A DNA stretch of 17,130 nt from Amoebophrya sp. A120 (taxonomy: Eukaryota > Protista > Dinoflagellata). The number at the start of each line of letters is the position of its first letter. The first letter of the stretch is position 1. The notes beneath the pieces were generated by a model. The model had not been told where the DNA came from. It did no database searches and saw only the letters and a program-made list of their open reading frames with translations. The stretch spans positions 360,934 to 378,063 of the forward strand of contig CAJINV010000025.1 in assembly GCA_905178155.1 (NCBI GenBank), read 5' to 3'. The position numbers and the translations under genes are program-made. Positions 1 through 17,130 of this stretch are shown piece after piece.

Positions 1-2
1 GC

Positions 3-308
3 TGTGGCTTTTTGACGATGTTGGAAAAGGCTGATAGTGACAACGAGTCCTCGCCGTCGCCGGCGTCACCAACTACAACGCCAGCCGCACCTGCTGGACG
101 AGCAAGCAGCCCCGTTCTGGCTCGGCGGTCGATGCCCTTGAGCGACGTGCTGCGGCGAGTCAAGAGGGCCCGAGAAAGTAGTGCAGGCGGCGCCGCAACT
201 ACATTTCTGCAGCGGCGGGGGGGGGGCAGCAGCAGCAGCACCAGCAGCGGCTCGACCACCAGCGAACACAACTACTATGACACAAGCCTCGACTGCGGCA
301 GATTTTGA
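3..308 (+). CDS. 3' end of a gene entering from upstream; Ser/Pro/Gly/Thr-rich low-complexity C-terminus, function unknown
   Basis: Frame is open from base 3 to TGA 306-308. It is GC-rich and composition drops after the stop. The TTG start in the ORF track is probably not a real start. Confidence 0.55.
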   Translation, partial: CGFLTMLEKADSDNESSPSPASPTTTPAAPAGRASSPVLARRSMPLSDVLRRVKRARESSAGGAATTFLQRRGGGSSSSTSSGSTTSEHNYYDTSLDCGRF

Positions 309-1670: not shown

Positions 1671-2148
1671 GTGGTATTTCGATTCCATCTACCCGAAATA
1701 AAGCAAACCGATCCAATAGAAGGAATTTCTTTCTGTTATCGATTGCAAATATGTCTGGGGCTGGAAATTTGTGTTGTTGAAGCTTTCGCGAGTCTGGGTC
1801 CGTCTGGAAATTTGTGTTGTCAGAGTTCTTGTAGACACTTCCTACATAATTGTCATGACATCAGAACTTTTGCGAAATTCGCAAAGAAGGCACTTACTGC
1901 AGATTCAGGCGTAATAAAATGCACGACAAAGAAGGGCGACAAGGTGCTCTTGCTCAACCTCAATCGCATTCATGCATTACAGATCTTGTTGCCCTTCCAA
2001 TAGTTCGCATGACAAATAACCCAGCCCCAGACTACATATTTGCCAACATGCATACCCGGTTGCTTTCCTGAACTTCACTGTCGTGGTACTTACTTCGATT
2101 CCATCTATCCGAAGAATCTAAACCGATCCAATAGGAATTTCTACCTGT
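1671..2148 (+). repeat. ~65-bp imperfect direct repeat pair (1671-1736 and 2083-2148)
   Basis: Both copies read gtggta..ttcgattccatcta.ccgaa..a....aaaccgatccaatag..ggaatttct..ctgt. Confidence 0.8.
1737..2054. mobile_element. Degenerate family A TAT...ATA element
   Basis: Left end tatcgattgcaaatatgtctggggctggaa; right end ccagccccagactacatatttgcc...gcata. Flanks tctgt/cccgg do not match. Confidence 0.7.
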
Positions 2149-2444: not shown

Positions 2445-4871
2445 ATGGATACGTCTCGTCGTGGATTGCCCTGTTGGGCGATTGCCGTGCTGGTCGCGGT
2501 AGGGGGAGCTGTCCAAAGCGAGGGAGTGACATGGCGGAGGAGCTGCGGAGAGACGAGGGAGGAACTGCGTCCGCAGGAGCGGGAGGAACTGCGTCCGCAG
2601 GTATCCTGTGCAAAAGTACTATCCGATACTCGTAGAAATGCATTACAAATTTCCTCAGCGTGAGAAATGAAATTTGTAATGCCGATTCACCTTAAGGAAA
2701 AGCAAAAGATGTGCAATGCATGATTACAATACGAGTACGATGCTTTTGCATTGCATAGCAGGGGGGATGGACCGATGTCGACGACGTCTTCCGCTGCAGT
2801 GCGGAGTATGAAATGCAGAAATGTCTCCGTCTGGAAGATTGCTAGGCTTGTGATGCACGTTCTGCATGAGCCATGATCGATCTGTGATGCATGCCCTAGC
2901 ATCACAGATTAGATTTTTTGAGAGCATCTTGATGCGCCAGCCTATTCCGCATGACACATGCACTCTCCGCGTAGCAAAATTCACACTCCCTTTGCTGCCC
3001 ATGCAGTACTACAGATTTCGTTGGAAAAATCCAAATGCAGCGTCACAAGTTGCATTCCCATTCTCCCAGACCCAGATATATTTGCAGTCGATACGCAGGA
3101 CTACGAAGCGATGGCGCAAACCTGGGTTCCAGGCCTCCAGGCAGAACCTGCTGCTGGCTCAAGAACAGTTGGAGGCCTGTTGTCTACTTCCGCGAATTAT
3201 ATTGATAGAGCGGTGCGTCCGGTGCACATTTTCTTCGAAACGTTTGGAAAAACCACCCTGACAGGCGCATATAACTTGATGAAGCAGCTGGCAAAAACGC
3301 CGCACGTTAAAGTCACCTTTGTTGGCCCGGTGGGAAAGTTGATACAGAAAAAGGATCCGGCGACCGGCGAGCGGGTGATTGTGTATGCGGATCAGCTGCT
3401 ACCTGTATTAAATGTAAATATCGATCTGGGTCTAGAAGAATGCCAGGTTTGTCATGCATATTTTGCATATACCCGTGATGCCTGCAATGCAGGACCTAGC
3501 ATCACAGATTCTTAAAGGGCCTTCTTATGCGTGGTCCGCATGAGAAATGCCCACTCCGCGTAGCACAAACTGAACTACTCTTGCTGGTCATGCAATACAG
3601 ATGTTTTTCGCTTCCGAAGACAGCATCACAAGCTGCAACCTTCCAGACATCCAGGGATTTTTGCATTTGATAACCCGCGGCGAGCAACGACGTGAAAGGA
3701 GATCTATCCTGAGTAAAAACGTACCCGCACCAGAGTTGTAAGGCAGATTTGCAAAGACAGGAAGTCTTGTAATGCGCATCCCCATGAGAGCCATTTCCAA
3801 TCGTGTCTTGGAATTTGTGATGCTGTGAACAGGATGAGCAGATGAATCTGTGATGCGGCTGCACTTGCTAACCTGCACTACACTGCATAGTGCAACTTGT
3901 CACGCGTGACTCACAAAACTCCTAGGCTTGTGTTGCAAAATCCTCATCCTGACTCTGGTGTGGGTACGCTTTTACTCAGGATAAGATCTTCCAGATCCCG
4001 CCCTTGAGGGAGACAAGACCTATATGAATTGTGAAAGTGTCTGGGTCTGCAAACTTGTGAATGTGATGCTAAAATGTGCAACCAAGATGAAAACAGTTCC
4101 GAATGGAATGTAGCATGACAACTTTCCAGCACGCTTTCTCATAGGCAATCCGCATGAGAGACTCACTGCGTGTTTGCAGGTACAAAAGAGGCTGCGCCTC
4201 TTGGTGGTTGTGCAATACAGATTTCCTAGGTATAATGAAAAGCTAGCACTACAAGTTCCAACCTTTCAGACCCAGACATATTTTTTGCAATCGATAACCT
4301 ATCTTGCGAAACAACTGAGAAAGTACGATCGGCTGCAGCACAACGGGACGGTCTGGACGGAGAGGAAGTCGGAGAATGTTACTGTTCTTTGGGACTTTGC
4401 TGTCTCCGAAAGCGAGATGAAGAGCCTCGGCGCGGCCGGAGTGGAGTTCGTGCCCTGCCGCCCCCGAAGATACTTTTGGAGTGTGAAAAGCAACACCGCG
4501 GTGCGACAGATGTTGCCGCGTTTGTTTTTGACGGACGGGGGGGAAAATCCGGAGGGCTCTACTTGGGTTATCAAATGCAAATATGTCTGGGTCTGGAAGA
4601 TTGCCAGGTTTGTCATGCATATGTTACATGACCCATGACGATGAAGATGATGCTTCTAATGCATGACCTAGCATCGCAGATTTTCATTTTTAGAGGGCTT
4701 CCTGATGCTTATTCCGCGCAAACTGGACCCCTCTTGTTGGTCATGTAATGCAGATTTTTTTAGAATGCAGCAACAGCATCACAAGTTCCAACCGGCCTCC
4801 AGACCCAGACACTTTTGCATTTGATATCAGTTTTCCGCGAACAAGACAACCGAGACTGGCCGCGCCAGTTT
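2445..4871 (+). CDS. Split gene for an unknown, probably secreted or membrane-targeted protein; segments 2445-2601, 2763-2806, 3099-3405, 3678-3704, 3989-4022, 4302-4568, 4832-4871 (876 nt, 292 codons, no stop yet)
   Basis: Manual removal of six elements plus one 5-bp repeat each gives MDTSRRGLPCWAIAVLVAVGGAVQSEG...EELRPQ/GGWTDVDDVFRCSAE/DYEAMAQTW...ADQLLP/AASNDVKGD/LPDPALEGDKT/YLAKQLRKY...PEGSTW/VFREQDNRDWPRQF with no stop. The N-terminus is hydrophobic. Confidence 0.8.
2557..2601 (+). repeat. In-frame 24-bp tandem duplication (REELRPQE/REELRPQ)
   Basis: gggaggaactgcgtccgcagg occurs at 2557 and 2581. Confidence 0.9.
2602..2757. mobile_element. Family D short TAT...ATA element / putative introner (156 bp)
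   Basis: tatcctgtgcaaaagta...gatgcttttgcattgcata with perfect flanking gcagg/gcagg. Homologous to 11431-11581 and 11635-12000. Confidence 0.88.
2807..3093. mobile_element. Family A element / putative introner (287 bp)
   Basis: tatgaaatgcagaaatgtctccgtctggaaga...ctcccagacccagatatatttgcagtcgata; flanks cggag/cgcag (4/5). Confidence 0.88.
3406..3672. mobile_element. Family A element / putative introner (267 bp)
   Basis: tattaaatgtaaata...ctgggtctagaaga to ttccagacatccagggatttttgcatttgata; flanks acctg/acccg (4/5). Confidence 0.88.
3705..3983. mobile_element. Family B element / putative introner (279 bp)
   Basis: TIR tatcctgagtaaaaacgtacccgcaccagag / ctctggtgtgggtacgcttttactcaggata; perfect agatc/agatc. 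Confidence 0.92.
4023..4296. mobile_element. Family A element / putative introner (274 bp)
   Basis: tatgaattgtgaaagtgtctgggtctg...cagacccagacatattttttgcaatcgata; perfect accta/accta. Confidence 0.9.
4569..4826. mobile_element. Family A element / putative introner (258 bp)
   Basis: tatcaaatgcaaatatgtctgggtctggaaga...tccagacccagacacttttgcatttgata; flanks tgggt/tcagt (3/5). Confidence 0.9.
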
Positions 4872-4997
4872 TATGCATTGCAAACATGTCTGGGTCTGGA
4901 AGATGTCATGCTGCTTCTGCATGACACAGAAGGTCTGGCATGGAAGCCCTAGCATCACAGATCTCGAGAAGGTTTTGCAATCCGCCTAATCCGCGAC
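4872..4997. mobile_element. Truncated family A element (left part only)
   Basis: tatgcattgcaaacatgtctgggtctggaaga plus the internal ctagcatcacagat block; no right TIR found. Confidence 0.75.
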
Positions 4998-5521
4998 AGA
5001 AGAAAAAAATGTGTATAATTTTCGTTTGTTAAAGAGTTTATAATTCTACCACTACTCAGGGAGGTGGGGTAGGCTTAATGGGGTAAATTCAGGCTCTCCA
5101 CCAATGTTGCCCGAATCGGATAGAACACAGACGAGGTCCGCTTCAAAGTTCGACTTTCATTTGTTGAGATACCCAAAAGACTGCTCATATGAGACGACTC
5201 AGTCCGGAGACTACACATCAGGCATTCACAACGAAGTCGGTCGTGTCGGTCCTGTCGTACTTCCACAGCCACCGTAGGAGCGAAACTGTGGAGAAGAAAG
5301 GCTCGCATTAGTAAGCTGGTTCTTGTCTTCGTTCGAGTCGGTGATCATATTATGGTTTAATTGGTGTGGCTCAGCTGTGGTGTATATATAGTTTTGAGCA
5401 GGATTTATTGCAACATTAACGCTTTATCGGTTTCAATTTTTGTCCGAATCTATTTTCAGAATTCGGGCACTTGAATTTGTTAGCGCCATCGGTTAATACT
5501 ATTTGATATCAGACCTGTTCT

Positions 5522-5760
5522 GGTTCTGTAACATGGATGAAGAAGCGAATTTTGCAGTTTTGCCCTGCCGCAGCATCTCGGTTAATATTTCAAAGACGTT
5601 CGGTTCGTGTGGAACTACAGTGTAAATCGGTGTGGTTATTTCAAAGATAAGACGTTCTGGTTCTGTTCGTGTGGACCTACAGTGTAAATCGGTCGCGCGT
5701 ATGGTGCAAAATTTTCTGTATTCTGTCCGAATTATCGTGCAACTTCTGCTTTTAACCTAC
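5522..5760 (+). repeat. Dispersed repeat R1, copy 2 (partial, with internal duplication)
   Basis: Matches 1213-1350 and 7101-7281; tatttcaaaga...ttcgtgtgga.ctacagtgtaaatcggt occurs twice. Confidence 0.85.
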
Positions 5761-6606
5761 TGGCTCGACTGGATAGCGCAGCGCTGGTTCCCGGTATCAT
5801 TTGGAAAAACTTCCCCACCCCATAGTCAAGTAGATGAATCTTGCAACACAAATCTCCAAGTTTTAGGAGCTGCGCATGACAAATTTCCCTCTGCAGTGTA
5901 GTGCTGATTGGCAAGAGAAGCTGCATGAGAAAGCCACTTTCGCATCCTTTTTACAGCATTACAGATTCCAAAACACGAGTGGAAATGCCTCTCATGCAGC
6001 TGCGCATTACAAATGTTGCTGTCATTGCACATTTGCATGACAACTTTGGTGTGGGGACGGCGTTTTTACTCAGGATACCCGGCAGCCGTGTTTCGCAGTC
6101 CGTTCTACTGCGTGTTTCCGAACACGGTGTCACATATTTTGGCCAAAGTGGATATGGGAGTGTCAGGATTGAAATCGTCAAAGTTGAAATAGTTTGTCAT
6201 GCATAAATTGGATGCCGGTTGGAACCCAGGTTCCAAGTAGCGCATGACAGATTCGGGCGTTGCCTAGATCCAGTTTGTAATGCTGCTTAGGCAAAGAGAA
6301 CCGATTTTCTCATGCTACTTTAGCAGCTCCAGCTCTAACCCGAAACAGGCTTACAATCGGCCTCACTTGCCTGCTCTGCAACACACGTCTGTGGCGTCAT
6401 GCATTTTATGCATTAAAAGTTATTCCAACTTTGTCCATTTCGATCCTGACACTCCCAAAGTGGAGGGCTTGCGGTTGGCGAAGCAGGAGGACTATTTGTT
6501 TCTCTTCTACCGAGATTATTGGGTGAACTCTCCAGTTCGGTTTGTTTGTTTCAGAGCAGACGGAGAAAAAGGCTGTAGCAGGGGCGATTTCATCTTCATC
6601 CTGTGA
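5755..6606 (+). CDS. 3' part of a split gene; segments ~5755-5794, 6083-6152, 6465-6606; possibly the end of the 2445-4871 gene
   Basis: Removing two elements plus one repeat each gives TYWLDWIAQRWFP/AAVFRSPFYCVFPNTVSHILAKV/EGLRLAKQEDYLFLFYRDYWVNSPVRFVCFRADGEKGCSRGDFIFIL-TGA. The 5' boundary is uncertain because it abuts R1. Confidence 0.7.
5795..6077. mobile_element. Family B element (283 bp), opposite orientation to 3705-3983
   Basis: Ends tatcatttggaaaaacttccccacc / ggtgtggggacggcgtttttactcaggata. The interior is the reverse-complement homologue of 3780-3950. Perfect cccgg/cccgg. Confidence 0.9.
6153..6459. mobile_element. Family C element (307 bp)
   Basis: TIR tatgggagtgtcaggattgaaatcgtcaaagttgaaata / tattccaactttgtccatttcgatcctgacactcccaaa (terminal ATA reads AAA); perfect gtgga/gtgga. 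Confidence 0.9.
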
Positions 6607-6883
6607 CGCTAGAAGTTCATTTGGCGAAAATTTGTGTAAATAAGTAATTCAGCAGCAGGAGCAGCTGGCTCCAGTACAAGAACAGCTGCTAGTGCAGAAG
6701 ATAATTCTCGTCCAGCAGAACAACACATCATAAATCTTGTGGAAGACAGGTGCTTGAAAGTCGAGGCTTTACGGGCATTCACGGCGGGAGGAATAAAAGC
6801 TGCGAATTTGTAGTAAAAGACTCAACAATAGAGACATACACGCGATCTCTTCGGCAAGAGCTTTGGTTTGCCGTAAGTAGACT

Positions 6884-6934
6884 AAAGAACAACAGAGCAC
6901 GACTTAGTCACTAAGTCGTGCTCTGTTGTTCTTT
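6884..6934. repeat. Perfect 25-bp inverted repeat with 1-nt spacer
   Basis: aaagaacaacagagcacgacttagt-c-actaagtcgtgctctgttgttcttt. Confidence 0.95.
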
Positions 6935-7017
6935 CCATGCTGCACCAATTTCTCAACGAAGAAGTAGTGCACTGGTTATATATTCGATGCACCAATTTTA
7001 ATATCGTCCATCTTCGA

Positions 7018-7385
7018 GTTTCATCATACACCGTGACACTTCTTGTCACCTGCGATGAACTTTCGGTCAACCTCAACAATGATACCGCTTCGGTGACGTG
7101 AAGAATCGAATTTTGCAGTTTTGCCAAGCCGCACCGTTTCGGTCATTTCAAAAACGTTCTTGTCTAGACCTAAAATGAAAATCGGTCGTGCAGCGTATCG
7201 TGCAAAATTTTCTGTACGTACGTATGGTGCAAAATTTTATGTATTCTATCCGAATTATCGTGCAACTTCTGCTTTTCAACTACTTCGGTGTTGGTACTAT
7301 CTTGTCCAAGGTTGACGCTGGCTATAATTTTTCACCCCGTCGGTCGTGCAACGAGATCACTCGTTTTTGCAACAGCATGTCGGTT
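7018..7385 (+). repeat. Dispersed repeat R1, copy 3
   Basis: Collinear with 1141-1465, with small indels. Confidence 0.85.
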
Positions 7386-7630
7386 GTTCTCGCCGTGCAC
7401 AATATGTTGATTATCGTACACAATTCGTACGCAACATCCCACATCCACAACAGGACAATGTGAAGCTTTTGTTCTTCGCGGAATTATAAACGCTTCTACT
7501 TTGCCCCTACAAGTTTACATAAATCACTAACGACGGCTGCTCATCTCACAGATATTGAATTTATATTTTATTGAAGTACTATTCACACCAAAAGAAAACG
7601 AAATTGAATATAAAATTATTGACCACGACG

Positions 7631-8790
7631 AGACAACAAAACTAAGTACTCAAAGAAACACGAAGCGGAAGCGGTGAAGAGAAACACGCATAAGAGAAGC
7701 GGAATCGTGCGTTCCTGCAGCCCACAACAAGTATGAGATGGACTGAGCGATTCAAAATCAACGGATTCAAAAATTTTCTTTCATGTTCCAAGCTTTTCCT
7801 GACTCTTGAAAAGAACAGCAGCAAGGATGGGCTGTGTTCTGGGTGATTTTTTGCGTTCGCCGAAACGTCGCCCAGAAGAGTATCAAGCGAACAAGCTAGG
7901 TCGATCTCAACTTGACTTCGTGACTTAGGCGTACGTGAACGCAGAAAAACCGGGAAGGGGAACAAGGCGAGTGTCTGCATTCATAAACGTGAAGAATTCG
8001 CAGAAGCAAGGGGCAACAGAGTAGGCTACACAGCGGATACCCTCGAAGCCCAAGCCTGCCACTATTTGGCCCCAAGGCGCTTTTTTTGTTGGCATTTTTT
8101 GTTGCATTTTTTTGTTGGCATAGTAGCCCGCGCGGCCTCCGTGGACCTGGTCGAGGCTGCCGCAGGTTTACAACCTTTACGCGAGCAGGCCCAAAGGCAT
8201 TCCCACCACGGCGCACCAGAAGCCGCCGGCCATGCCCGGCGGTCGGCCCGCTTGGGTTTTGGAATGGGCCTTGGGTTGCCCTTCACATGGCTGACGCGCG
8301 TTTTTCCCGGGACACAACTTGGCGGCACTGTTGCGTCTTGTTTTTCCGATCATTTCAAGGCTTCATGCGCACGCGCTGACTTCATCCCCTACTTTGCAGC
8401 CTGTAAGTATAAAATGGCAAGTAGTTGCCTCAAGTTGAGACCGGCCACGTTGGCCTCTTTCGTAGTCTTCGGCCTACATATTTTACTTCCATAACCCGGC
8501 GCCGACATCTCCGCCACTTACCTGAAACTGCTCCGCGCGACGCCGAATCCGGGGACGTTTTGGAGGAGTTGATGGGATGCGTTTTAGTTGAAAAAAAATT
8601 TTTGAATCGCTTGGGTTTGAATCGCTCAGTCCATCTCATAACAAGGTACCTAATTCATTCCCAATCTAGACAACAAACACGAAGCGGAAGCGGTGAAGAG
8701 AAACACGCAATTCCTGCGGTGAACGAAGAGAAACACGTGCGCTCCGGCCGCCCACAAGGTACCTACTTGATTCCCAATCTAGGCATTGCA
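7631..8790 (+). repeat. Tandem pair of a ~110-130 bp unit (7631-7731+8646-8667 and 8668-8782); the first copy is split by the 909-bp element
   Basis: Both read agacaacaaa...acacgaagcggaagcggtgaagagaaacacgca...gcccaca..aggtaccta....attcccaatctag. Pieces recur at 10452-10474 and 12613-12634. Confidence 0.75.
7732..8640. mobile_element. Long family G TAT...ATA element (909 bp), non-autonomous
   Basis: tatgagatggactgagcgattcaaa / tttgaatcgctcagtccatctcata is a perfect 25-bp TIR extending imperfectly to ~55 bp; perfect acaag/acaag. Confidence 0.92.
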
Positions 8791-10444
8791 TTTTTCCAGA
8801 CATCTCATGCTAGGCATCACAGATGATAGCTAGGACTAGGTCGCGCAGCACCAGCGCGAACCTCGTGAGCGCCAGAATGGGTTACTAACCACCTCTGTGG
8901 CCCCATTTTTGTTCTCCCGTGGCCAGCCCTTGCCTACAAAAATGGACGACACCGGGGGAGCACAGGAGACGCGCAGCCAATGCCCACGCCGATGTCGGTG
9001 CGCAATCAATCTGGAGAGGGAGGCGAAGATGGCGCGCGCATGCTAGAGAAGCACGCACTATCAAAGGAGCAACTAAATCACTTCACATCTGAATCATAGG
9101 GCCAAAAAAAAAAATTTTTGAGTATTAATATAGCTTAGCATGAAGAAATGACTTCAGTTGTATGCACATGATGACGATGCGAATATGCCACCAGAATGGC
9201 AGTTTTGAAGGCTCAAATGAAGAGCTTTGATTTTGAACTAGATAGTTGATAGCTGCAGGACGATCTAGATAAGTAGCTAGCTGAAGATCATGGTTTATTT
9301 GATGAAAAAACAAAGAATATTAGAAGGATTTCGCCTTGTGGCTTCCGGCCGGCAGCCTCTCGCCAAGCTGGAGCGAGGAGCTGCTACGCCTCCAATGTGG
9401 AGAGCTGCTGGGAGACATAAACCGCCAATGAGCCGAAGAGCTGGCACTCCGTGACGAAGCAGCCCAACGGATTCGGAGCTGGTACTCCGTGACGAAGCAG
9501 GCCAACGGATTCGCCCGAATCCGTTGGGCTGCTTCGTCACGGAGTTCCAGCCCTCCGGCAGAAGAAGCACACATTCTTCCCCGCAGAGCTCCACGTTGGC
9601 GACGTCCCAGCTCCTCCAGCCTGGCGGGAGGCTGCCTGCCGGAAGCCACCAGGCGAAATCCCTTTACTTTTCTTTGTTTTTTCATTAAATAAACCATGAT
9701 CTTCAGCTACTTATTTAACTAGATCTTCCTGCAGCTATCAACTACCTAGTTTAATTAAGAAGCTCAACAGCAGAGCCTTCTTCTGCCGTACCTGGTTTGC
9801 ATTCTGCATCATATCAACGCAATCATTCATAAGTGAAAGCCACATGATTTGTTACTTGAAATACATTAAAAAAATTTTTTTTTTGGCCCTATGATTCAGA
9901 TGTGAAGTGATTCATTTGCTCCTTTGATAGCACGCGCGGCTTGTTTACTCATCTTGACGCGAATATATATAATTTAGCGAGCTCGTGGCCCCTCTCTCCG
10001 GCGACGCAGTGGCCCGCCACTGCCCGCTAGCGACCTCTGTTGGGGAGGGTTCGGGACTTGTTGCAGCCTCTGTTGCGCCCGGCGCTGCGACCTCTCGGCG
10101 CAGTGCTGGAGCACGGTTCGACCCACGTCTGTGGGCGGACAAGTGCGACGCCCGCAGCCACCTCTGTGGCGCGGACGTCGCGGCGCGGTCCCTGCTGCAC
10201 GCCTCGCTACTGTATCTAGTAGCACAAAAGACGCTGCGAAGCAGCGCAGATACACTTTATACAGAGCCGGAGTTGTTCCACCACTGTGAAGGGTGTCGTG
10301 GCCTTTTGTTGAGAACATACGGACTAGAGCAGCGGCCCCATGCGGCCGCAGAACTGCGGGGATTTGGGAAGTAGTTTGTGTTCGCCTCACGATGATCACC
10401 AAGATGCTACCCAAGTCACATCATGGATCAGGTACCAACAGGGC
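8750..10444 (+). repeat. Segmental duplicate 1 (paralogous to 13487-16384), interrupted by the palindromic element
   Basis: 8831-9058 matches 13552-13830 and 9950-10444 matches 15829-16384 (e.g. ttgcagcctctgttgc.cccggcgctgcgacctctc). Confidence 0.85.
9059..9929. mobile_element. 871-bp foldback (fully palindromic) element with TAT...ATA ends and probable 8-bp target duplication
   Basis: tatcaaaggagcaa..aatcacttcacatctgaatcatagggccaaaa matches the reverse complement at the right end, and the arms pair inward to an axis at 9514-9515. Flanks gcacgcac/gcacgcgc. Confidence 0.92.
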
Positions 10445-10479
10445 GGAAGCCGAAGCGGTGAAGAGAAACACGCATTACG

Positions 10480-10741
10480 TATCAAATGTAAAAATGTCTG
10501 GGTCTGGAAGATTCTAAACCTGTAATGCTGTCTCTGGATTCTAAAAAATTTGTATTGCATGACCAGCAAAAGGACTCCAGTTTGTGCTACGTGAAGAGGG
10601 CATTTCTCATGCGGTAGAGGCACCACAAAGTCCTCTGAAAATCTGTGATGCTAGGGCATGCATCACAGACATCATCGGCCATTCAAAATATGCATGACAA
10701 ACCTGGCAATCTTCCAGACCCAGACACTTTTGCAATGGATA
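10480..10741. mobile_element. Family A element (262 bp), left unit of a composite; opposite orientation to 3406-3672
   Basis: tatcaaatgtaaaaatgtctgggtctggaaga...tcttccagacccagacacttttgcaatggata; own flanks ttacg/ggtgg do not match. Confidence 0.92.
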
Positions 10742-10800
10742 GGTGGGCGCGACCTGCCACCCGGTGGGGCGGGAGGAATTCGACGTGCCTCCACCAGCAC

Positions 10801-11062
10801 TATCAAGTGTAAAAGTGTCTGGGTCTGGAAGATTGCAACTTGTCATGCTAAATCTGAAGCATGCAAAAATTTGTTTTGCATGAGTGCCAAAAGCTGTCCG
10901 CTTTTGACCAAGTTGAGAGGGAGTTTCTCATGCAGGAAAGGCATGATAGAGCCCTCAAAGAATCTGTCATGCTGGGTCTCGCATTCCAGACCTCATGAGT
11001 CATGGAAAACCTGCATCACAAATCTTGTATTTTTCCAGACCCAGACATTTTTACATTTGATA
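10801..11062. mobile_element. Family A (subtype A2) element (262 bp), right unit of a composite
   Basis: tatcaagtgtaaaagtgtctgggtctggaaga...ttccagacccagacatttttacatttgata; own flanks agcac/ttacg. Close inverted homologue of 16385-16646. Confidence 0.92.
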
Positions 11063-11096
11063 TTACGAATACCAAAACGAAAACCGAACTTCAAGA

Positions 11097-11403
11097 TATC
11101 AAAGTGAAAAAAGCCCCCACCCCATATTCAAAAGACGATTTGTGTTGGTGGATTCGTGTACTACGCAAATGAGCTTTGTAATTGCAGCAAGAGCTTGTCT
11201 GCATATAATTCTATAGCCCATTTGGGTGCTGCGCGCCCGGCTAGCAGCTGAGCATGTGAAACAAGGCTGACATATTAGGCGAAAACGCATGACAGACTCG
11301 CTGAACAATGCGCCACAAGGGTTCCGCTTGCCTTGTACGCAAGACAAAGCATCGCAAATTTTCCTCTCGATGTGGGGACGGGGGTGGATTTTTCCTTACG
11401 ATA
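11097..11403. mobile_element. B-related TAT...ATA element (307 bp)
   Basis: tatcaaagtgaaaaaagcccccacccca / ggggacgggggtggatttttccttacgata. The left end resembles 5795-5825; flanks caaga/cgcga (3/5). Confidence 0.72.
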
Positions 11404-11430
11404 CGCGACTCGCTTTCTCCGCGGCCTGCA

Positions 11431-11581
11431 TATGAACTGCAAAAGTATCGTATAAATGCATGACAAATTCCCTCAGCATGAGATTGAGCAATTAAAATTT
11501 GTAAGTATATGCGTATGTGACTTAACAAAAAGATTTGTAATGCATGACTGCAATACGAGTACGATACTTTTGCACAGGATT
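11431..11581. mobile_element. Family D element (~150 bp), right end eroded
   Basis: tatgaactgcaaaagtatcgta...tacgagtacgatacttttgcacaggat; same orientation as 2602-2757. Confidence 0.82.
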
Positions 11582-11634
11582 GCTTTCTATAGTTAGAACT
11601 CCGCGCCAGCTCCTTCACGACGATCGAACTGTCC

Positions 11635-12000
11635 TATCCTGTGCAAAAGTATCGGATTCGTATTGCAGTCATGCATTACAACAAATCTTTTTGTTAAGGT
11701 AAATCAGCATTGCAAATCAGTCAGGGTAGAGGAGCAATCCTCGGGCACATAGATAACAAAACGCTGCACATCTGAAAGAGTTTTTTTGAAAGAAGAAAAG
11801 AACAGACGTGCACCATCAGAAGTGTAGTGCTGGCGGTAGCACTTGTGCTGCACCATCAGAAGTGCGTAACTCGCATGCCGGGCGTGCCATGTCAGGATGT
11901 CAGGATAACGCAGAAGCTCAGTCAGTCAGTCAGCATTGCAAATTTTATCTCTCATGCTGAGAAATGCACTTATACGAGTACGATACTTGTGTAGTTCATA
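11635..12000. mobile_element. Family D element, inverted, containing a nested insertion
   Basis: tatcctgtgcaaaagtatcg...cgatacttgtgtagttcata; perfect tgtcc/tgtcc. Confidence 0.88.
11718..11929 (+). mobile_element. Probable non-LTR retroelement fragment (SINE or 5'-truncated LINE)
   Basis: The insert is absent from the other D copies, is flanked by a 14-bp direct repeat tcagcattgcaaat (11704-11717, 11930-11943), and ends in (TCAG)n. Confidence 0.6.
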
Positions 12001-12022
12001 TGTCCGGCGGGAAAATATCGAT

Positions 12023-12676
12023 ATGAGAGTGCATAAAAACAACTCGATCTCCACGTACTACCCAGCTGCAGCCGCCCGGGACGAGAGTGCGGCTCTACTG
12101 CTGAGCGCGGAAGATAACGCAGTGGGACAGCACGTTGAACAGGAGACGGAAAATGTTGAAAAAACCCCCGCCCACGGGGGCTGTTGCCAAGACTGCTGCA
12201 CGAAAAAGTGCGTGCTCATCCTTCTCCTCATATTTCTCGTCCTCGCAGGCGGTGCTTGCGTTTTAATTTTCGTTCCCTGGTTCGACGTATCAAATGTAAA
12301 AATGTCTGGGTCTGGAAGGATGCGAACTTGTGATGCTGTCTTCGGATTCTAAAAAAATCTGTATTGCATGACAAGCAATTATAGGGCTCCAGTTTGTGCT
12401 TCGCGGGAGGGCATTTGTCATGCGGAATAGGCATGATCAGGAGGGCCTCTAAAGCTCTGTGATGCTAGGTCATGCATTCCAGACCTCATAGGTCATGGGA
12501 AACCTGCATCACAAGTCTTGCAACCTTCAAGACCCAGACATATTTGCAATCCATACGACGGTTGGAGTGAATCTTTGTACACGAGATGGAGAGGAGGTGC
12601 GACGTTCCTGTCGCCCACAAGGTACCTAATTCATTCTCATATTCTAAGCATAACGCACTCCAGATCGGTCACATAA
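12023..12676 (+). CDS. Putative single-pass membrane protein, split (12023-12287, 12561-12676); may be a fragment and may extend upstream
   Basis: MRVHKNN...GGCCQDCCTKKCVLILLLIFLVLAGGACVLIFVPWFD/GWSESLYTRWRGGATFLSP...VT-TAA has a Cys cluster followed by a hydrophobic helix. The last ~20 codons lie in a dispersed repeat. Confidence 0.55.
12288..12555. mobile_element. Family A element / putative introner (268 bp), opposite orientation to those in 2445-4871
   Basis: tatcaaatgtaaaaatgtctgggtctggaagg...ccttcaagacccagacatatttgcaatccata; perfect cgacg/cgacg. Confidence 0.93.
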
Positions 12677-12711
12677 TTCTAGGCATCAACTGCACAAATA
12701 GGACTAGGTCG

Positions 12712-12962
12712 TATGGATTGCAAAAATGTCTGGGTCTGGAAGAATGCAAGTTTGTCATGCTTGTCTGGCATGGCTCGAAAATCTGTGTTGCATAGGCGCG
12801 AAAAGGCTCTCTTGCCTGTCATGCAAAAACCCAGTTTGCCATGCGGAATACGTAAGACATGGCAGCCAAAAAATTTGTCATGCGTAGGTGCGTATTGCAG
12901 TGCGTCTACCATTCACTTTTAGCATTACAAGTTTCCAGACCCAAACGTTTTTACATTTGATA
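12712..12962. mobile_element. Family A element (251 bp)
   Basis: tatggattgcaaaaatgtctgggtctggaa...ttccagacccaaacgtttttacatttgata; perfect ggtcg/ggtcg; empty paralogous site at 8831-8870. Confidence 0.93.
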
Positions 12963-13023
12963 GGTCGCCAGACATCACCACCAGCGCGAAGAACCTCGTG
13001 AGCCCTGGGGGTATTGTGCGGGA

Positions 13024-13233
13024 TATCCCACGAAAAAACTGTTTTACTGTGATGATCTTGCAAGATCTGCATCGCAGGTTTGTATACACATGACACAGAA
13101 AATTTGCATTGTGCGCTTCCCAAGGGAAAACACGCTAAAAAATCCAATGTCTTGCAGGCGTAGCAAGACAAATCGTTCCGTGCTCCATTCTCTGCATCAC
13201 AAGTTCACAGTGAAACAGTTTTTTCTTGCGATA
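13024..13233. mobile_element. Family F element (210 bp)
   Basis: tatcccacgaaaaaactgttttactgtga / tcacagtgaaacagttttttcttgcgata; perfect cggga/cggga. Confidence 0.9.
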
Positions 13234-13281
13234 CGGGAGCAAAACAAAGTGAAGTGGAAATATCAAAGCGACGCAAGCTGT

Positions 13282-13487
13282 TATCCCACGAAAAAAGTGT
13301 TACAGTTACACATTTGTTGTCAATTCCGCAACACAAATTTTCTCTGCATGAGACTTGTAATGCGAAGATCATAAGGGAAAACAGGAAGGAAAGGAGGCTC
13401 CGAAGCATTTCCTGCATGAGAAAGGTTGTCTCTGTTGCCAGTCTTGCATGACAATGTGTAACTGTTGTAACACTTTTTTCTTCTATA
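13282..13487. mobile_element. F-related element (206 bp)
   Basis: tatcccacgaaaaaagtgttacagttaca / tgtaactgttgtaacacttttttcttctata; flanks gctgt/attca do not match. Confidence 0.8.
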
Positions 13488-16384
13488 ATTCATTCTCATA
13501 TTCTAAGCATAACGCACTCCAGATCGATCACATTCTAGGCATGATCACAAATAGGACTACTAGGTCCTCGCGCAGCACCTCCAGCGCGAACCTCGTGAGC
13601 AGGGCCGGAATTTTTATGGGCCAACCACCTCTGTGGAAGGAAGGACCCCACTTTTGTTCTCCCGTGGCGGCGGTGGCCAGAATTAGAATTTATGCCTACA
13701 AAAATGAAAATAAATGGAGGACAGCGGGGGAGCGCAGCAGACACACAGCCAATGCCTACGCCGATGGCGGTGCGCGAACTGGTAGGAGGGAGGCGAAGAT
13801 GACGCTCGCATGCTCTCGTAAGAGAAGCGTTCGCGGCTTGATGTTGGTCACCCTTTTTTATGTTCACACACGACTCGCAAGGCACATCCTGACGTCTATG
13901 GCTCATTTGGAGTCGCGTTTCAAACTTTCACACGCAGAGCGCGGCGATTCGCAAGTTTAGCCGAACCGGCGTAGCGATTTTGTGTCTGGTTTTCTGACAT
14001 TGTGTGCCCATCACAGAATTCGTGTGATAGGCACGCAACACTTTGAGGGGGCCAGAAATAAAACTGCCGCGCCACTTCGGCTGTACTTGCGACCTTTGGT
14101 GCCTTGCGCGTGACAGTTCGATCCGCGTGTCCAAGCGAGGTGACTGTCGACGTAACACGCAAAGCCTGGGAACGAATTTCTGTGAGTCACCTGAATAAAA
14201 TTGGTGCTCAGATCGGTTTTGCTGGTCAGGGCACAAATCTTACGCAGGCAGCCTACAGAAATTAGGTCTCAGGACCCCACATCCGAGAACTTGTCGGATG
14301 GGACTTCACATCCGAGGAACTCCCGGACGTGAACTCACATCCAAGAATTCCTCGTGTGTCAGCTCACATCCGAGAACTTCTCGGCTGTGCGCAGACATCC
14401 CAGGAGTTAGTATTTGATGTGGCGAAAATCCTTGCGAACAAATTGCTGGAAGTCACCTGCGTAAGATTTGTGGTCCGATCGGCAATACCTATTGGAGCAC
14501 AACCCCTACGCAGGTGAGTTACGGATATTAGCTCTCAGGATTTCCGCCGCATCACGAAATTCTTGACGCAGCGAAGATCCTGGGAAATAATTTCTGTAAG
14601 CCACCTGCGTAAGATTTGTCTTCTCACTGGTAATACCGATCTGGGCACAAATCTTATGCAGGTGACTTACAGAAATTACTTCCCAGGATTGGATCATCAG
14701 TGTGTCCAAGTGTGGCGACTGGAGACGCAGTACGCAAATCCCAGAAGTGCATTTCTTTGGGGCACGAAAGCCGAAGTTGTAGGAGCGCGAGTTCTGCTCT
14801 GCTCTTAGGTAAAGAAAACTCGCGCAGCGCTTTTTCCTCCTGGCCTTCTAGAAGTGTGCTTCTGAACACATCTGCAGAGCGATCTGCTTTTTCTTCTAGG
14901 GAGAAGACGCAGCCTCTGCTAGAAGAAGAAGCAGCTTCTTCTAGAAGCTGCGTTTTCTAGAAGAAAAAAAGTCTGCGTCTTCTACAGGAAGACCAGCCTT
15001 CTAGAAGAAGACAAAACTTCGCGCCTTCTTCTAGAAAAAGACGCAGCTTCTTCTAGAACAAGAAGCTGCGTTTTCTTTTAGGAACTCAGTTTCTAGAAGA
15101 AAACTTCCGGAAAAAGTGTTCGGACAGGGGGTTTGCAAAGGGGTCTTCAAAGGGGTGGTCGCGCAAAGTGCCTTAGTCACGACCTAACAAAGGGTCAACG
15201 AAAGGGGTCAACGAAAGGCTCTCTCGGAAGGGGGTTTCCGCGAGACCTTTTCTGAAAGAAGTCAAGAAGACTTCTTTTAGAGTCTGAAAGAAATCCAGCG
15301 GATTTCTTTTAGACTCTCAAAGGATTTCTTCTAGAGTCTCAAGGTGCCTCAGAGGCACCTTGAGATTCTAGAAGAAATCCTGGGAACTCATTTCTGTAAG
15401 TCCGTTGCGTAGGATTTGCACTCAGGTCGGGATTACCGGTCGAAACGCAGATCCTACGCAACCTACTTACAGAAATGAGTTCCCAGGATCCCACATCCGA
15501 GAATTCCTCGGATGTCAGCTCACATCCGAAGGGTTCGCGGAAGTGAGCTGCAGGAGAACTTTCGCGCGCAAAGTGCCGAACTTTGGCGCCCTGCTTGTGA
15601 AAGTTCGATCCGCGTGTCCAAATGCGGCGATGTAGAAAAAACACGGGAATTCTGGGAGCTAATTCCTGGAAGTCGCGTGCGTAGGGTGTGTAGTCAGACC
15701 GGGACTACCGGTCGAAACGCAGAGCCCGCACACCTGCTTCAAAATTTTTGAAAGCCGAAGCTTTTCGGAACTGCTCTGAGAACTAATTTCTGAAAGCTCT
15801 GATATGTTCACACACGACTCGCAAGGCACATCCTGACGTGTATGGCGCGAATATGTAGAATCCAGGGGCTCGCAGCCCCTTCTTCCGGCGACGTAGTGGC
15901 CGAGCGAGCTTTGCGAGGGCGCACGCCCCTCGTAGCGAAGCGAGCCGTCACTACTTACCCGCTAGCGACCTCTGCTGTTCTTGCAGCCTCTGTTGCACCC
16001 GGCGCTGCGACCTCTCGTCGCAGTGCTGGAGCATGCCTCGACCCAAGTGGTCTATGGGCGGACAAGAGCTGCGACGCGCGCAGCGGACGTCGCGGCGCGG
16101 TCCCTGCTGCGCGCCTCGCTGCTATGTATCTAGTAGTGCAAAAGACGCTGCGAAGGAGCGCAGATTATACACCTTTACTTCATACAGAGCCCCCGGAGTT
16201 CCACCACTCTGAAGGGTGTAACCTTTTGAGAACATACGAACTAAACAAGCTGCCAGCCCGTCAAGGGGCGCCAGCGCTCTGCTGGGGATAGATTTGGGGA
16301 GAATTTTGTGCTCGCGCCACGATCATATAGGTAGCAAACCCTCGTACCCAAATTACATCATGGATCTTCAGGTACCAACAGGGC
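13487..16384 (+). repeat. Segmental duplicate 2 (13487-13902 and 15803-16384), interrupted by a 1.9-kb insert
   Basis: 13487-13600 also matches 12628-12711+12968-13003; otherwise see 8750-10444. Confidence 0.82.
13903..15802. repeat. 1.9-kb non-coding insert of repeated hairpin units, ~30-bp tcacatcc repeats and a TTCTAGAA-rich tract, bounded by a 44-bp direct repeat
   Basis: tatgttcacacacgactcgcaaggcacatcctgacgt(c/g)tatggc at 13859-13902 and 15803-15846. Hairpins at 14165-14273, 14430-14539, 14577-14689, 15377-15489 and 15651-15745. Confidence 0.82.
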
Positions 16385-16646
16385 TATCAAATGTAAAAAT
16401 GTCTGGGTCTGGAAGAATGCAAGATTTGCAATGGAGGTTTTCCATGACCCATGAGGTCTAGAATGCGAGACCCAGCACGACAGATTCTTTGCGGTCTCTA
16501 TCATGCCTCTCCTGCATGAGAAACTTCCTCTCAACTTGGTCAAAAGCGGACAGCTTTTGGCACTCACGCAACACAGATTTTTGCATCATTTAGATTTAGC
16601 GTGACAAGTTCTAATCTTCCAGACCCAGACAATTTTACATTTGATA
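16385..16646. mobile_element. Family A2 element (262 bp), inverted relative to 10801-11062
   Basis: tatcaaatgtaaaaatgtctgggtctggaaga...tcttccagacccagacaattttacatttgata; flanks agggc/gagac do not match. Confidence 0.92.
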
Positions 16647-16648
16647 GA

Positions 16649-17130
16649 GACGTGGCCGGGCCATTAAACGGCGGGGGCGATGATCGAACAAGTTCGGATC
16701 TTGGAGGCGATCAAGCCCAAGTTCGCTTCCATAGATCGGATCTATGGAAGCGTCAGGTTTGAAATCGTCAAAGTTGAAATAATTTGTAATGCATAAAATG
16801 CATGGCCCGAGGCACGTGCGTTGCAGAGCAGGCAAGTGAGGCCGATTGTCCGCCTGTTTGGGGTTCCAGCTCGAGCTGCTAAAGTAGCATGAGAAAATCG
16901 CTCGTCTTTGCCTAAACAGCGTGACAAACTAGATGTAGGGACCACCGAAATTTGTCATGCGCCACTTAGAAACTGGGTTCCAACTGGCATCCATTTTATG
17001 CATGACAAATTATTTCAACTTTGTCGATTTCAACTCTGACACATCCATACGATGGGGGTGGTGGCGATCAGGGTGGTGGCGATGGCGATGGTGGTGGCTT
17101 CTCTCCACAGGAGCCTCCTGATGAACCTGA
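16649..17130 (+). CDS. Partial split CDS, Gly/Asp-rich; segments ~16649-16742 and 17055->17130
   Basis: The joined frame DVAGPLNGGGDDRTSSDLGGDQAQVRFHRSD/(R or G)GGGDQGGGDGDGGGFSPQEPPDEP is open, with GGD motifs on both sides of the element. Confidence 0.6.
16743..17049. mobile_element. Family C element (307 bp), inverted relative to 6153-6459
   Basis: tatggaagcgtcaggtttgaaatcgtcaaagttgaaata / tatttcaactttgtcgatttcaactctgacacatccata; flanks ggatc/cgatg (3/5). Confidence 0.9.

What the first reader, a model, noticed from the sequence alone, without database searches (positions are those of the whole stretch)
2602..17049. Six or more TIR families share one rule: TAT...ATA ends plus a variable 5-bp target duplication
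Seen: perfect 5-bp flanking repeats at 11 sites (gcagg, agatc, accta, cccgg, gtgga, acaag, ttacg, tgtcc, cgacg, ggtcg, cggga) and 3-4/5 matches at five more. The TA is therefore part of the element and not a Tc1/mariner TA duplication. Established: 5-bp duplications occur with Transib (CAC ends), Ginger2/TDD and LTR integrases (TG ends) and hAT5, while IS3EU has TAY ends but 6-bp duplications, so none fits cleanly. Inference: an unclassified or atypical DDE transposase acting in trans; none is encoded in this window.
Basis: partly seen in the sequence, partly recalled or inferred. Interest (0 to 1): 0.8.

Follow-up and report, generated by a model that had tools for sequence, protein, structure and literature searches.

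The report
Transposon-derived introns with fixed cut register
These short mobile elements interrupt genes of the marine parasite Amoebophrya and are already described as 'introner' introns; the added detail is that assemblies of likely RNA lack each element plus exactly five bases, cut one base before and four bases after it, which would leave the gene unscarred and likely shows how they are spliced without normal splice signals.

Summary
They are the introner elements of Amoebophrya sp. A120: TIRs starting TAT-N7-AAA and 5-bp repeats (PMC7789003), and '5-bp TSD, TA/TA termini' (PMC12130899, Dataset S2). Removing six elements plus 5 nt each gives exactly a public A120 protein. RNA-like contigs skip element+5 nt at 15 of 15 junctions. 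In 141 loci from one metagenome assembly, 246 of 310 elements have exact 5-bp repeats (null 0.4).

Not found in my searches: only one cut register fits all 15 junctions, 1 nt before TAT and 4 nt after ATA (P about 1e-4). It holds in both element orientations and where the duplication is lost, with no GT-AG needed. Since 1+4 equals the duplication length, removal is scarless. A hairpin-positioned, U1-less spliceosome is my likeliest mechanism (untested). No transposase was found; an integrase-type IS3EU/GingerRoot-like enzyme is the best guess. The scan noted similar hairpin introns in other genomes, none here.

The parts
2445..4952 (+). Host gene A coding span, 318 aa after six introners are removed; hydrophobic N-terminus; no Pfam family
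   Evidence: Spliced translation identical to P0004, named Amoebophrya sp. A120
1737..2054 (.).
   Evidence: X7 record 22 pieces 1608-1734 and 2058-2473, depth 6; retained in X1 record 2
2602..2757 (.). Introner 156 bp, TSD gcagg
   Evidence: joint 2596-2758
2807..3093 (.). Introner, main family F1, flanks 4/5
   Evidence: joint 2804-3097; registers 0/5, 1/4, 2/3
3406..3672 (.). Introner F1, flanks 4/5, opposite orientation to 10480
   Evidence: joint 3404-3677; registers 0/5, 1/4
3705..3983 (.). Introner, TSD agatc
   Evidence: joint 3699-3984
4023..4296 (.). Introner (diverged F1), TSD accta
   Evidence: joint 4017-4297
4569..4826 (.). Introner F1, flanks 3/5
   Evidence: absent from P0004, left offset 0-2; X1 record 3 piece ends at 4566
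4872..4990 (.). Solo left end of an F1 element with no partner end, kept in the last exon of gene A (end approximate)
   Evidence: encoded in the C-terminus of P0004; X1 record 4 covers 4918-5789
5795..6077 (.). Element, TSD cccgg, inverted relative of 3705
   Evidence: joint not among those listed
6153..6459 (.). Element, TSD gtgga, right end AAA, inverted relative of 16743
   Evidence: joint not among those listed
7732..8640 (.). 909-bp introner, about 52-bp TIR, TSD acaag; size and TIR like published fam38 but no transposase similarity found
   Evidence: joint 7725-8640
8759..10431 (+). Likely canonical GT-AG intron of gene B
   Evidence: ends GT..CAG; loose end behind 8763 matches the exon at 10437; RNA upstream of 10430 differs from the window
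9059..9929 (.). 871-bp fold-back element, TAT..ATA ends, 4-bp repeat (gcac), inside the canonical intron
10480..10741 (.). Introner F1, left half of composite; left flank ttacg, no own TSD
   Evidence: joint 10478-10746; registers 0/5, 1/4
10746..10799 (+). 54-nt (18-codon) exon between the two halves of the composite
   Evidence: kept between two joints of one contig
10801..11062 (.). Introner F1, right half of composite; right flank ttacg; fixes register 1/4
   Evidence: joint 10799-11067, no slide possible
11097..11403 (.). Introner, flanks 3/5
   Evidence: joint 11094-11407
11431..11581 (.). Introner, no TSD, right end ATT; fixes register 1/4
   Evidence: joint 11429-11586, no slide possible
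11635..12000 (.). Introner, TSD tgtcc
   Evidence: joint 11629-12001
12005..12286 (+). Largest exon of gene B; transmembrane segment; 62% and 57% identical to A120 proteins P0005 and P0006
12288..12555 (.). Introner F1, TSD cgacg
   Evidence: joint 12282-12556
12622..16371 (+). Likely canonical GT-AG intron (3.75 kb) holding three more elements
   Evidence: X1 joint 12626 + 7 letters + 16651 (table 5c); ends GT..CAG
12712..12962 (.). Element, TSD ggtcg, inside the canonical intron
13024..13233 (.). Element, TSD cggga, inside the canonical intron
13282..13487 (.). Element, flanks 1/5, inside the canonical intron
16385..16646 (.). Introner F1, flanks 2/5, inverted and 91% identical to 10801-11062
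   Evidence: skipped +5, registers 0/5, 1/4 in X1
16743..17049 (.). Introner, flanks 3/5
   Evidence: joint 16738-17051; registers 1/4 to 4/1

Best explanation
These are the introner elements of Amoebophrya sp. A120: short TIR elements with 5-bp flanking repeats that interrupt host genes and are missing, with exactly five extra bases, from assemblies of likely RNA; they likely spread as non-autonomous DNA transposons and are likely removed by a hairpin-positioned spliceosome. Shown: anatomy, 5-bp repeats, no target preference, both orientations, removal of element+5 nt, and a single register (intron = N-TAT...ATA-NNNN) that fits all 15 junctions. Inferred, mobility: a transposase elsewhere in the genome cuts the target with a 5-nt stagger; the TA..TA ends and the published integrase-like similarity of fam38 point to an IS3EU/GingerRoot-like DDE enzyme (about 50%). 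Inferred, removal: the paired TIRs bring the ends together; the U1-less U2-type spliceosome cuts 1 nt before the terminal UAU, which puts U at +2 and A at +3 as in a normal donor, and sets the acceptor by distance, 4 nt after AUA, whatever the bases (about 55%). Because 1+4 equals the duplication length, any exonic insertion in either orientation would restore the original mRNA, which would explain the invasion of exons.
For: P0004 (100% identical, A120) equals the window gene with six elements +5 nt removed. All 13 listed element joints in contigs of X1/X3/X4/X7 skip element+5; 2 more were derived from pieces and from table 5c. Only 1/4 fits 15 of 15, P = 1.25e-4 for random registers. Letter counts fit direct joins: 47 and 57 letters between the pieces of record 3. 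The contigs also skip a GT-AG intron, and X1, X3 and X4 have zero depth in several non-exonic bins, as expected of RNA. Family F1 is skipped in both orientations in + strand genes; in the metagenome loci it lies 19 same, 21 opposite. No G excess at +1 (35 of 122); GT/GC..AG is possible in any register in only 7 of 122. Terminal TAT/ATA is predicted paired in 12 of 15. A solo end at 4872 stays in the exon. All 9 top A120 non-canonical sites in PMC7789003 Table S4 begin N-T, as a cut 1 nt before TAT predicts. A120 keeps U2, U4, U5 and U6 but no detected U1 (PMC7789003 section 10).
Against: No transposase was found here, and PMC7789003 found none in A120 and argued against general transposase mobilisation. 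The tool lists X1-X7 as RNA only by guess; they are unstranded contigs from at most 2 samples of 1 study, so the 15 junctions are not independent replicates. Only two junctions fix the register alone (10801, 11431), and 10801 reads CT..AC, canonical on the other strand. Gene B contigs differ from the window at 2 of 282 bases and upstream of 10430, so they may come from another allele or paralog. X4 and X7 show a different join at 16647. In 3 of 15 spliced elements (1737, 11431, 11635) the terminal pairs are not predicted. TIR positions 4, 5 and 7 in F1 match no better within elements than between, so perfect pairing is not selected. Published tables show A at -2 far more often (8 of 9 top sites) than my set (39 of 122, p = 0.03 before correction); this is unexplained. 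No lariat or snRNA evidence was tested.
Confidence: 0.85

Rival explanations
1. Same introners, but removed by a non-spliceosomal endonuclease-plus-ligase that measures from the TIR hairpin, as proposed for euglenid non-conventional introns.
For: Junction bases are free, both orientations work, and U1 is not detected in A120 (PMC7789003). Euglenid introns have TIR stems and TSD-like repeats (PMC11282704 passages; circular intron RNAs are known to me only from a reference title there).
Against: The register puts an invariant U at +2, as in spliceosomal donors (recalled). The cut tracks the terminal triplet even where the inner stem is shifted (1737) or the terminal pair is broken (11431). Fritillaria transposon introns appear spliceosomal (PMC11282704 passage).
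Confidence: 0.35
2. The shared TAT..ATA plus 5-bp rule is a survival filter, not the mark of one transposase: several unrelated TIR elements insert, and only those whose ends and duplication fit the 1+4 splice geometry persist in exons.
For: The one TAT..ATA element with a 4-bp repeat (9059-9929) lies in a canonical intron. Families 6153/16743 and 7732 share only TAT(G) with the others, and 7732 and 16743 are still skipped +5.
Against: Two of the three elements inside the 12622-16371 canonical intron also have exact 5-bp repeats. 2-bp or 8-bp duplications would also keep the frame but are near background (34 and 2 of 310). That set was picked by the TAT-N7-AAA end, so it cannot show other end types.
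Confidence: 0.2
3. The elements spread through RNA by reverse splicing of excised introns.
For: No transposase found in A120 (PMC7789003) or here.
Against: Orientation relative to the host gene is about 50:50. The repeats are a fixed 5 bp with random sequence. Copies also lie inside canonical introns.
Confidence: 0.04
4. The elements are cut out of DNA, like ciliate internal eliminated sequences, and the contigs that lack them are somatic DNA.
For: The runs are RNA only by the tool's guess; excision leaves one repeat copy.
Against: The same contigs skip a GT-AG intron and leave non-exonic bins empty. A DNA-like run lays 39,239 contigs with very high depth on the elements. The offset follows transcript direction, not element orientation.
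Confidence: 0.02

Closest known systems
Introner elements / non-canonical introns of Amoebophrya sp. A120 (Farhat et al. 2021, PMC7789003)
   Same: Same organism by a 100% identical named protein; IR motif TAT + 7 bases + AAA; 5-bp direct repeats at exon-intron borders; about 260 bp median for the main family; hairpin; no internal transposase; non-canonical borders.
   Different: The paper gives repeats of 3-5 nt, calls splice sites variable relative to the hairpin and border positions unknown (Fig. 3 legend), and doubts transposase mobilisation. Here the repeat is 5 bp and one 1+4 register fits all junctions. I could not see its figures (3, S19-S25), which may show part of this.
Amoebophrya A120 introner family 38 (Gozashti et al. 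2025, PMC12130899)
   Same: Dataset S2 note: '5-bp TSD, TA/TA Termini'; about 810 bp with 49-53-bp TIR, like the 909-bp element at 7732-8640.
   Different: Reported with ORFs similar to Copia/Gypsy elements and tabulated as Ginger, though the text says it lacks Ginger homology, termini and TSDs. The 7732 element gave no transposase hit, and I could not compare sequences.
IS3EU / GingerRoot DNA transposons (PMC10045372, PMC6839031, PMC12730594)
   Same: TA..TA termini, TIRs, no nucleotide-specific target, integrase-related DDE enzyme as the candidate.
   Different: TSD usually 6 bp; here 5 bp (0 of 310 exact 6-bp). No transposase to compare. No intron role appears in the passages I read.
Non-conventional introns of euglenids and diplonemids (PMC11282704 passages; PMC12621601 abstract)
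   Same: Non-canonical borders, TIR pairing that joins the ends, TSD-like repeats, likely MITE origin.
   Different: Other lineage; pairing motif CAG/CTG at +4..6 and -8..-6 and a pyrimidine|purine junction bias, against TAT at +2..4 and no clear junction bias here.
Aureococcus, Micromonas and Symbiodiniaceae introners (PMC9860276, PMC11282704 passages)
   Same: MITE-like elements with TIR and TSD that become introns.
   Different: They carry or co-opt ordinary splice dinucleotides; these need neither (7 of 122 could be GT/GC..AG).

Membership tests
Amoebophrya A120 introner elements | Terminal IR starting TAT, seven variable bases, then at least three A | tested here: met
   31 of 44 ends match strictly; 18 of 22 elements have at least one such end (counted by hand); definition
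Amoebophrya A120 introner elements | 3-5 nt direct repeats overlapping the exon-intron borders | tested here: met
   10 of 21 exact 5-bp in the window; 246 of 310 in metagenome loci
Amoebophrya A120 introner elements | Removed from transcripts as non-canonical introns | tested here: met
   15 of 15 junctions skip element+5; only 1 of 13 listed allows GT..AG on the + strand; RNA status of the runs is the tool's guess
Amoebophrya A120 introner elements | Repeated families, no internal transposase, A120 host | tested here: met
   families in both orientations; no transposase hit; P0004 identical
IS3EU / GingerRoot | TA..TA termini with TIRs | tested here: met
   definition
IS3EU / GingerRoot | TSD usually 6 bp | tested here: not met
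   0 of 310 exact 6-bp, 246 exact 5-bp
IS3EU / GingerRoot | Integrase-related DDE transposase of that clade | not testable with these tools
   no whole genome held; no autonomous copy among 9 long candidates or the long ORFs scanned
Ginger1 / Ginger2 (TDD) | TG..CA termini | tested here: not met
   position 2 is A in 120 and 121 of 122 ends; definition
Ginger1 / Ginger2 (TDD) | TSD 4 bp (Ginger1), 4-5 bp (Ginger2) | tested here: met
   5 bp; range; one search gives 6 bp for Ginger2
Tc1/mariner MITEs | TA target duplication outside the TIR | tested here: not met
   a random 5-bp repeat lies outside the TA
Canonical U2 spliceosomal intron | GT..AG borders | tested here: not met
   2 of 122 at register 1/4; 7 of 122 GT/GC..AG in any register
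Canonical U2 spliceosomal intron | Lariat intermediate and snRNA dependence | not testable with these tools
   needs lariat reads or experiments

The most novel reading that the evidence does not exclude
Amoebophrya A120 has a ruler-type splicing system matched to its transposon: the symmetric TIR end is the only signal, the cuts fall 1 nt before and 4 nt after it whatever the bases and orientation, and this exactly cancels the 5-bp duplication made by an unclassified TA-ended DDE transposase. Any exon becomes a safe target, and paired elements carry small exons into genes in frame (10480-11062).
Probability: 0.5. Interest if true: 0.72.

Novelty: already known. Interest (0 to 1): 0.42.

Why it matters
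The elements themselves are published. How A120 splices tens of thousands of introns without GT-AG or U1, and what moves them, was left open in the papers I read. A fixed 1+4 register turns 'variable splice sites' into a precise prediction: where a branch point or ligation junction must lie, and why a 5-bp duplication gives scarless removal. It would also let gene models in this genome be corrected by rule, and it suggests a route to exon shuffling.

Tried and rejected
No whole genome was held, so no genome-wide search was possible; the metagenome records could not be searched whole.

Transposase searches found nothing. Pfam on 13 window ORFs and on 10 further proteins and ORFs gave no transposase family. 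Nine TIR pairs over 450 bp with exact 5-bp repeats in the loci were inspected: some are lengthened or nested elements of 457-972 bp, others look like chance pairings across host genes (the 871-aa ORF of L054 has only a weak PH hit). Pfam on 90 of the 134 ORFs of 230 aa or more in the loci gave host domains only; 2 more were and 42 shorter ones were not scanned. The 192-aa ORF of the 909-bp element had no relative among 1.84 billion proteins and only scores under 0.8 in the ESM Atlas.

Two end patterns had 0 matches in viral contigs. Rfam gave 0 matches. Raw-read RNA runs X11 and X12 barely cover the window and say nothing on these genes; no holder is on record as RNA. An ORF test on the RPB1 locus L047 was inconclusive. 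ORF length alone cannot separate +2, +5 and +8 removal.

Rejected: TA duplication (Tc1/mariner), Ginger membership, DNA elimination, reverse splicing. A likeness of N-TATCC to the U12 donor and of N-TATG to the yeast donor is recalled and untested; PMC7789003 reports no minor spliceosome.
Full report
Observation. Ten of the 21 have exact 5-bp flanking repeats, one has a 4-bp repeat, and none has 3 or 6-9 bp; shuffled flank pairings never gave more than one match in 100,000 trials. Seven of 22 have two or fewer matches. There, 310 elements chosen by their ends alone had exact repeats of 5 bp in 246 cases, 4 bp in 1 and 6 bp in 0 (shuffle mean 0.40), with no base preference in the repeat.

What it is. 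The stretches between elements looked like exons. Removing six elements plus five bases opens a 318-codon frame from 2445. Its largest exon found one protein, P0004, 100% identical and named Amoebophrya sp. A120 by its source; the whole spliced translation equals P0004. Contigs from runs the tool guesses to be RNA (X1, X3, X4, X7; at most 2 samples, 1 study) skip element+5 nt at all 13 element joints listed; 13 further joints were not shown. Two more junctions follow from record pieces (1737-2054) and from the letters-between table (16385-16646). The same contigs skip a 3.75-kb GT-AG intron, and X1, X3 and X4 leave several non-exonic bins at zero depth, which fits RNA. A DNA-like run lays 39,239 contigs, mostly on the elements. 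A second + strand gene is supported by an open frame across the later elements and by two A120 paralogs that continue across the 12288 junction.

The cut register. Where the two flanks are identical the cut can slide; where they differ it is pinned. Of all registers, only one base before TAT and four after ATA fits 15 of 15 junctions (next best 11 of 15). With random registers a common one arose in 1.25e-4 of simulations. Two junctions fix it alone (10801, 11431). Family F1 is skipped in both orientations within + strand genes (2807, 3406, 16385 against 10480, 10801, 12288), so the offset follows the transcript and not the element. Among 122 of 371 metagenome elements that could be oriented by reading frame, there is no excess of G at +1, AG at the end occurs in 10, and GT/GC..AG is possible in any register in 7. 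F1 copies lie 19 in one and 21 in the other orientation. Terminal triplets are predicted to pair in 12 of 15 spliced elements. A solo end at 4872 stays in the exon. Against: contigs are unstranded; gene B contigs differ slightly from the window; X4 and X7 show another join at 16647; three spliced elements lack predicted terminal pairing; and published tables show more A at -2 than my set (8 of 9 top sites; 39 of 122 here, p = 0.03 uncorrected).

Mechanism. Mobility is inferred to be DNA transposition in trans: TIRs, a fixed-length repeat of random sequence, both orientations, and copies inside canonical introns. The enzyme was not found. TA..TA ends match IS3EU/GingerRoot, whose duplication is usually 6 bp, and a published A120 family has integrase-like similarity, so an integrase-type DDE enzyme with a 5-nt stagger is my best guess (about 50%). 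Removal is inferred to be by the U1-less spliceosome that A120 retains, placed by the TIR hairpin: the register puts U at +2 and A at +3, as in ordinary donors (recalled), and the acceptor is set by distance (about 55%; endonuclease-ligase about 35%). Since 1+4 equals 5, splicing undoes the insertion exactly.

Comparison with print. PMC7789003 (read: abstract, sections 10-12 and 16, passages, supplement legends, Table S4 rows, Table S7; figures not seen) describes A120 introners with IRs starting TAT, seven bases and three A, 5-bp repeats in Fig. S19, and 29,850 repeated introns; it calls the splice positions variable or unknown and found no transposase in A120. All nine of its top A120 non-canonical sites start N-T. 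PMC12130899 (read: passages, SI legends, all 58 A120 rows of Dataset S2; figures not seen) notes '5-bp TSD, TA/TA Termini' for family 38 and leaves 56 of 58 families unclassified. Passages only: PMC12005148, PMC10045372, PMC12730594, PMC11282704, PMC9860276, PMC6839031, PMC11453091. Abstract only: PMC12621601. Seven searches and these readings showed no statement of a fixed 1+4 register or of orientation-independent splicing for A120. The library lacks most subscription journals, bioRxiv supplements are closed, and the unseen figures (3, S19-S25) may show part of it.

Verdict. The finding as given is already known: A120 introners. The elements work like MITEs of a TA-ended integrase-type superfamily but fail the IS3EU/GingerRoot TSD test and the Ginger terminus test. 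The added value is the fixed register, which makes the open splicing question testable, and a composite at 10480-11062 that appears to have brought in an 18-codon exon. Interest 0.42.

Noticed in passing
window 10480-11062: Two F1 elements (73% alike) each lack their own repeat, but the outer flanks are both TTACG and the outer TIRs match over 25 of 25 bases; 54 nt of the spacer stay in RNA, in frame. This looks like a composite move or recombination between copies, i.e. exon shuffling; chance is not excluded.
   Followed up: partly
window 9059-9929: 871-bp fold-back element with TAT..ATA ends but a 4-bp repeat, inside a likely canonical intron; a 1+4 cut would shift the frame if it lay in an exon.
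   Followed up: partly
window 10431-17130: Gene B has many elements without repeats (5 of 11 from 10480 on have 2 or fewer matches, against 9 of 310 in the metagenome loci), repeated exon pieces near 7665, 8680 and 10445, and a variant join at 16647; it seems heavily rearranged. Paralog P0006 carries a glycosyltransferase domain.
   Followed up: partly
window 4872-4990 and 1465-1490: Solo element ends without a partner; the one at 4872 supplies the last codons of gene A.
   Followed up: partly
window 14158-15730: A separate family of about 115-bp repeats in direct and inverted copies, with 29-bp and 22-bp tandem arrays, inside the long canonical intron.
   Followed up: no
window 9945-10430 and 15850-16370; 1236-1440, 5538-5630, 7099-7360: Duplicated non-coding segments (the first pair seen by eye, the second set).
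   Followed up: no
window 6143-6152 and 6455-6464: The right end reads AAA instead of ATA, which makes a 10-bp direct repeat with the left flank.
   Followed up: no
L047 2117-6972: Introners with exact 5-bp repeats lie within or next to RNA polymerase RPB1 coding exons.
   Followed up: partly
L013 591-2090: C-5 cytosine DNA methylase ORF (E 1.7e-37) in the introner-rich metagenome organism.
   Followed up: no
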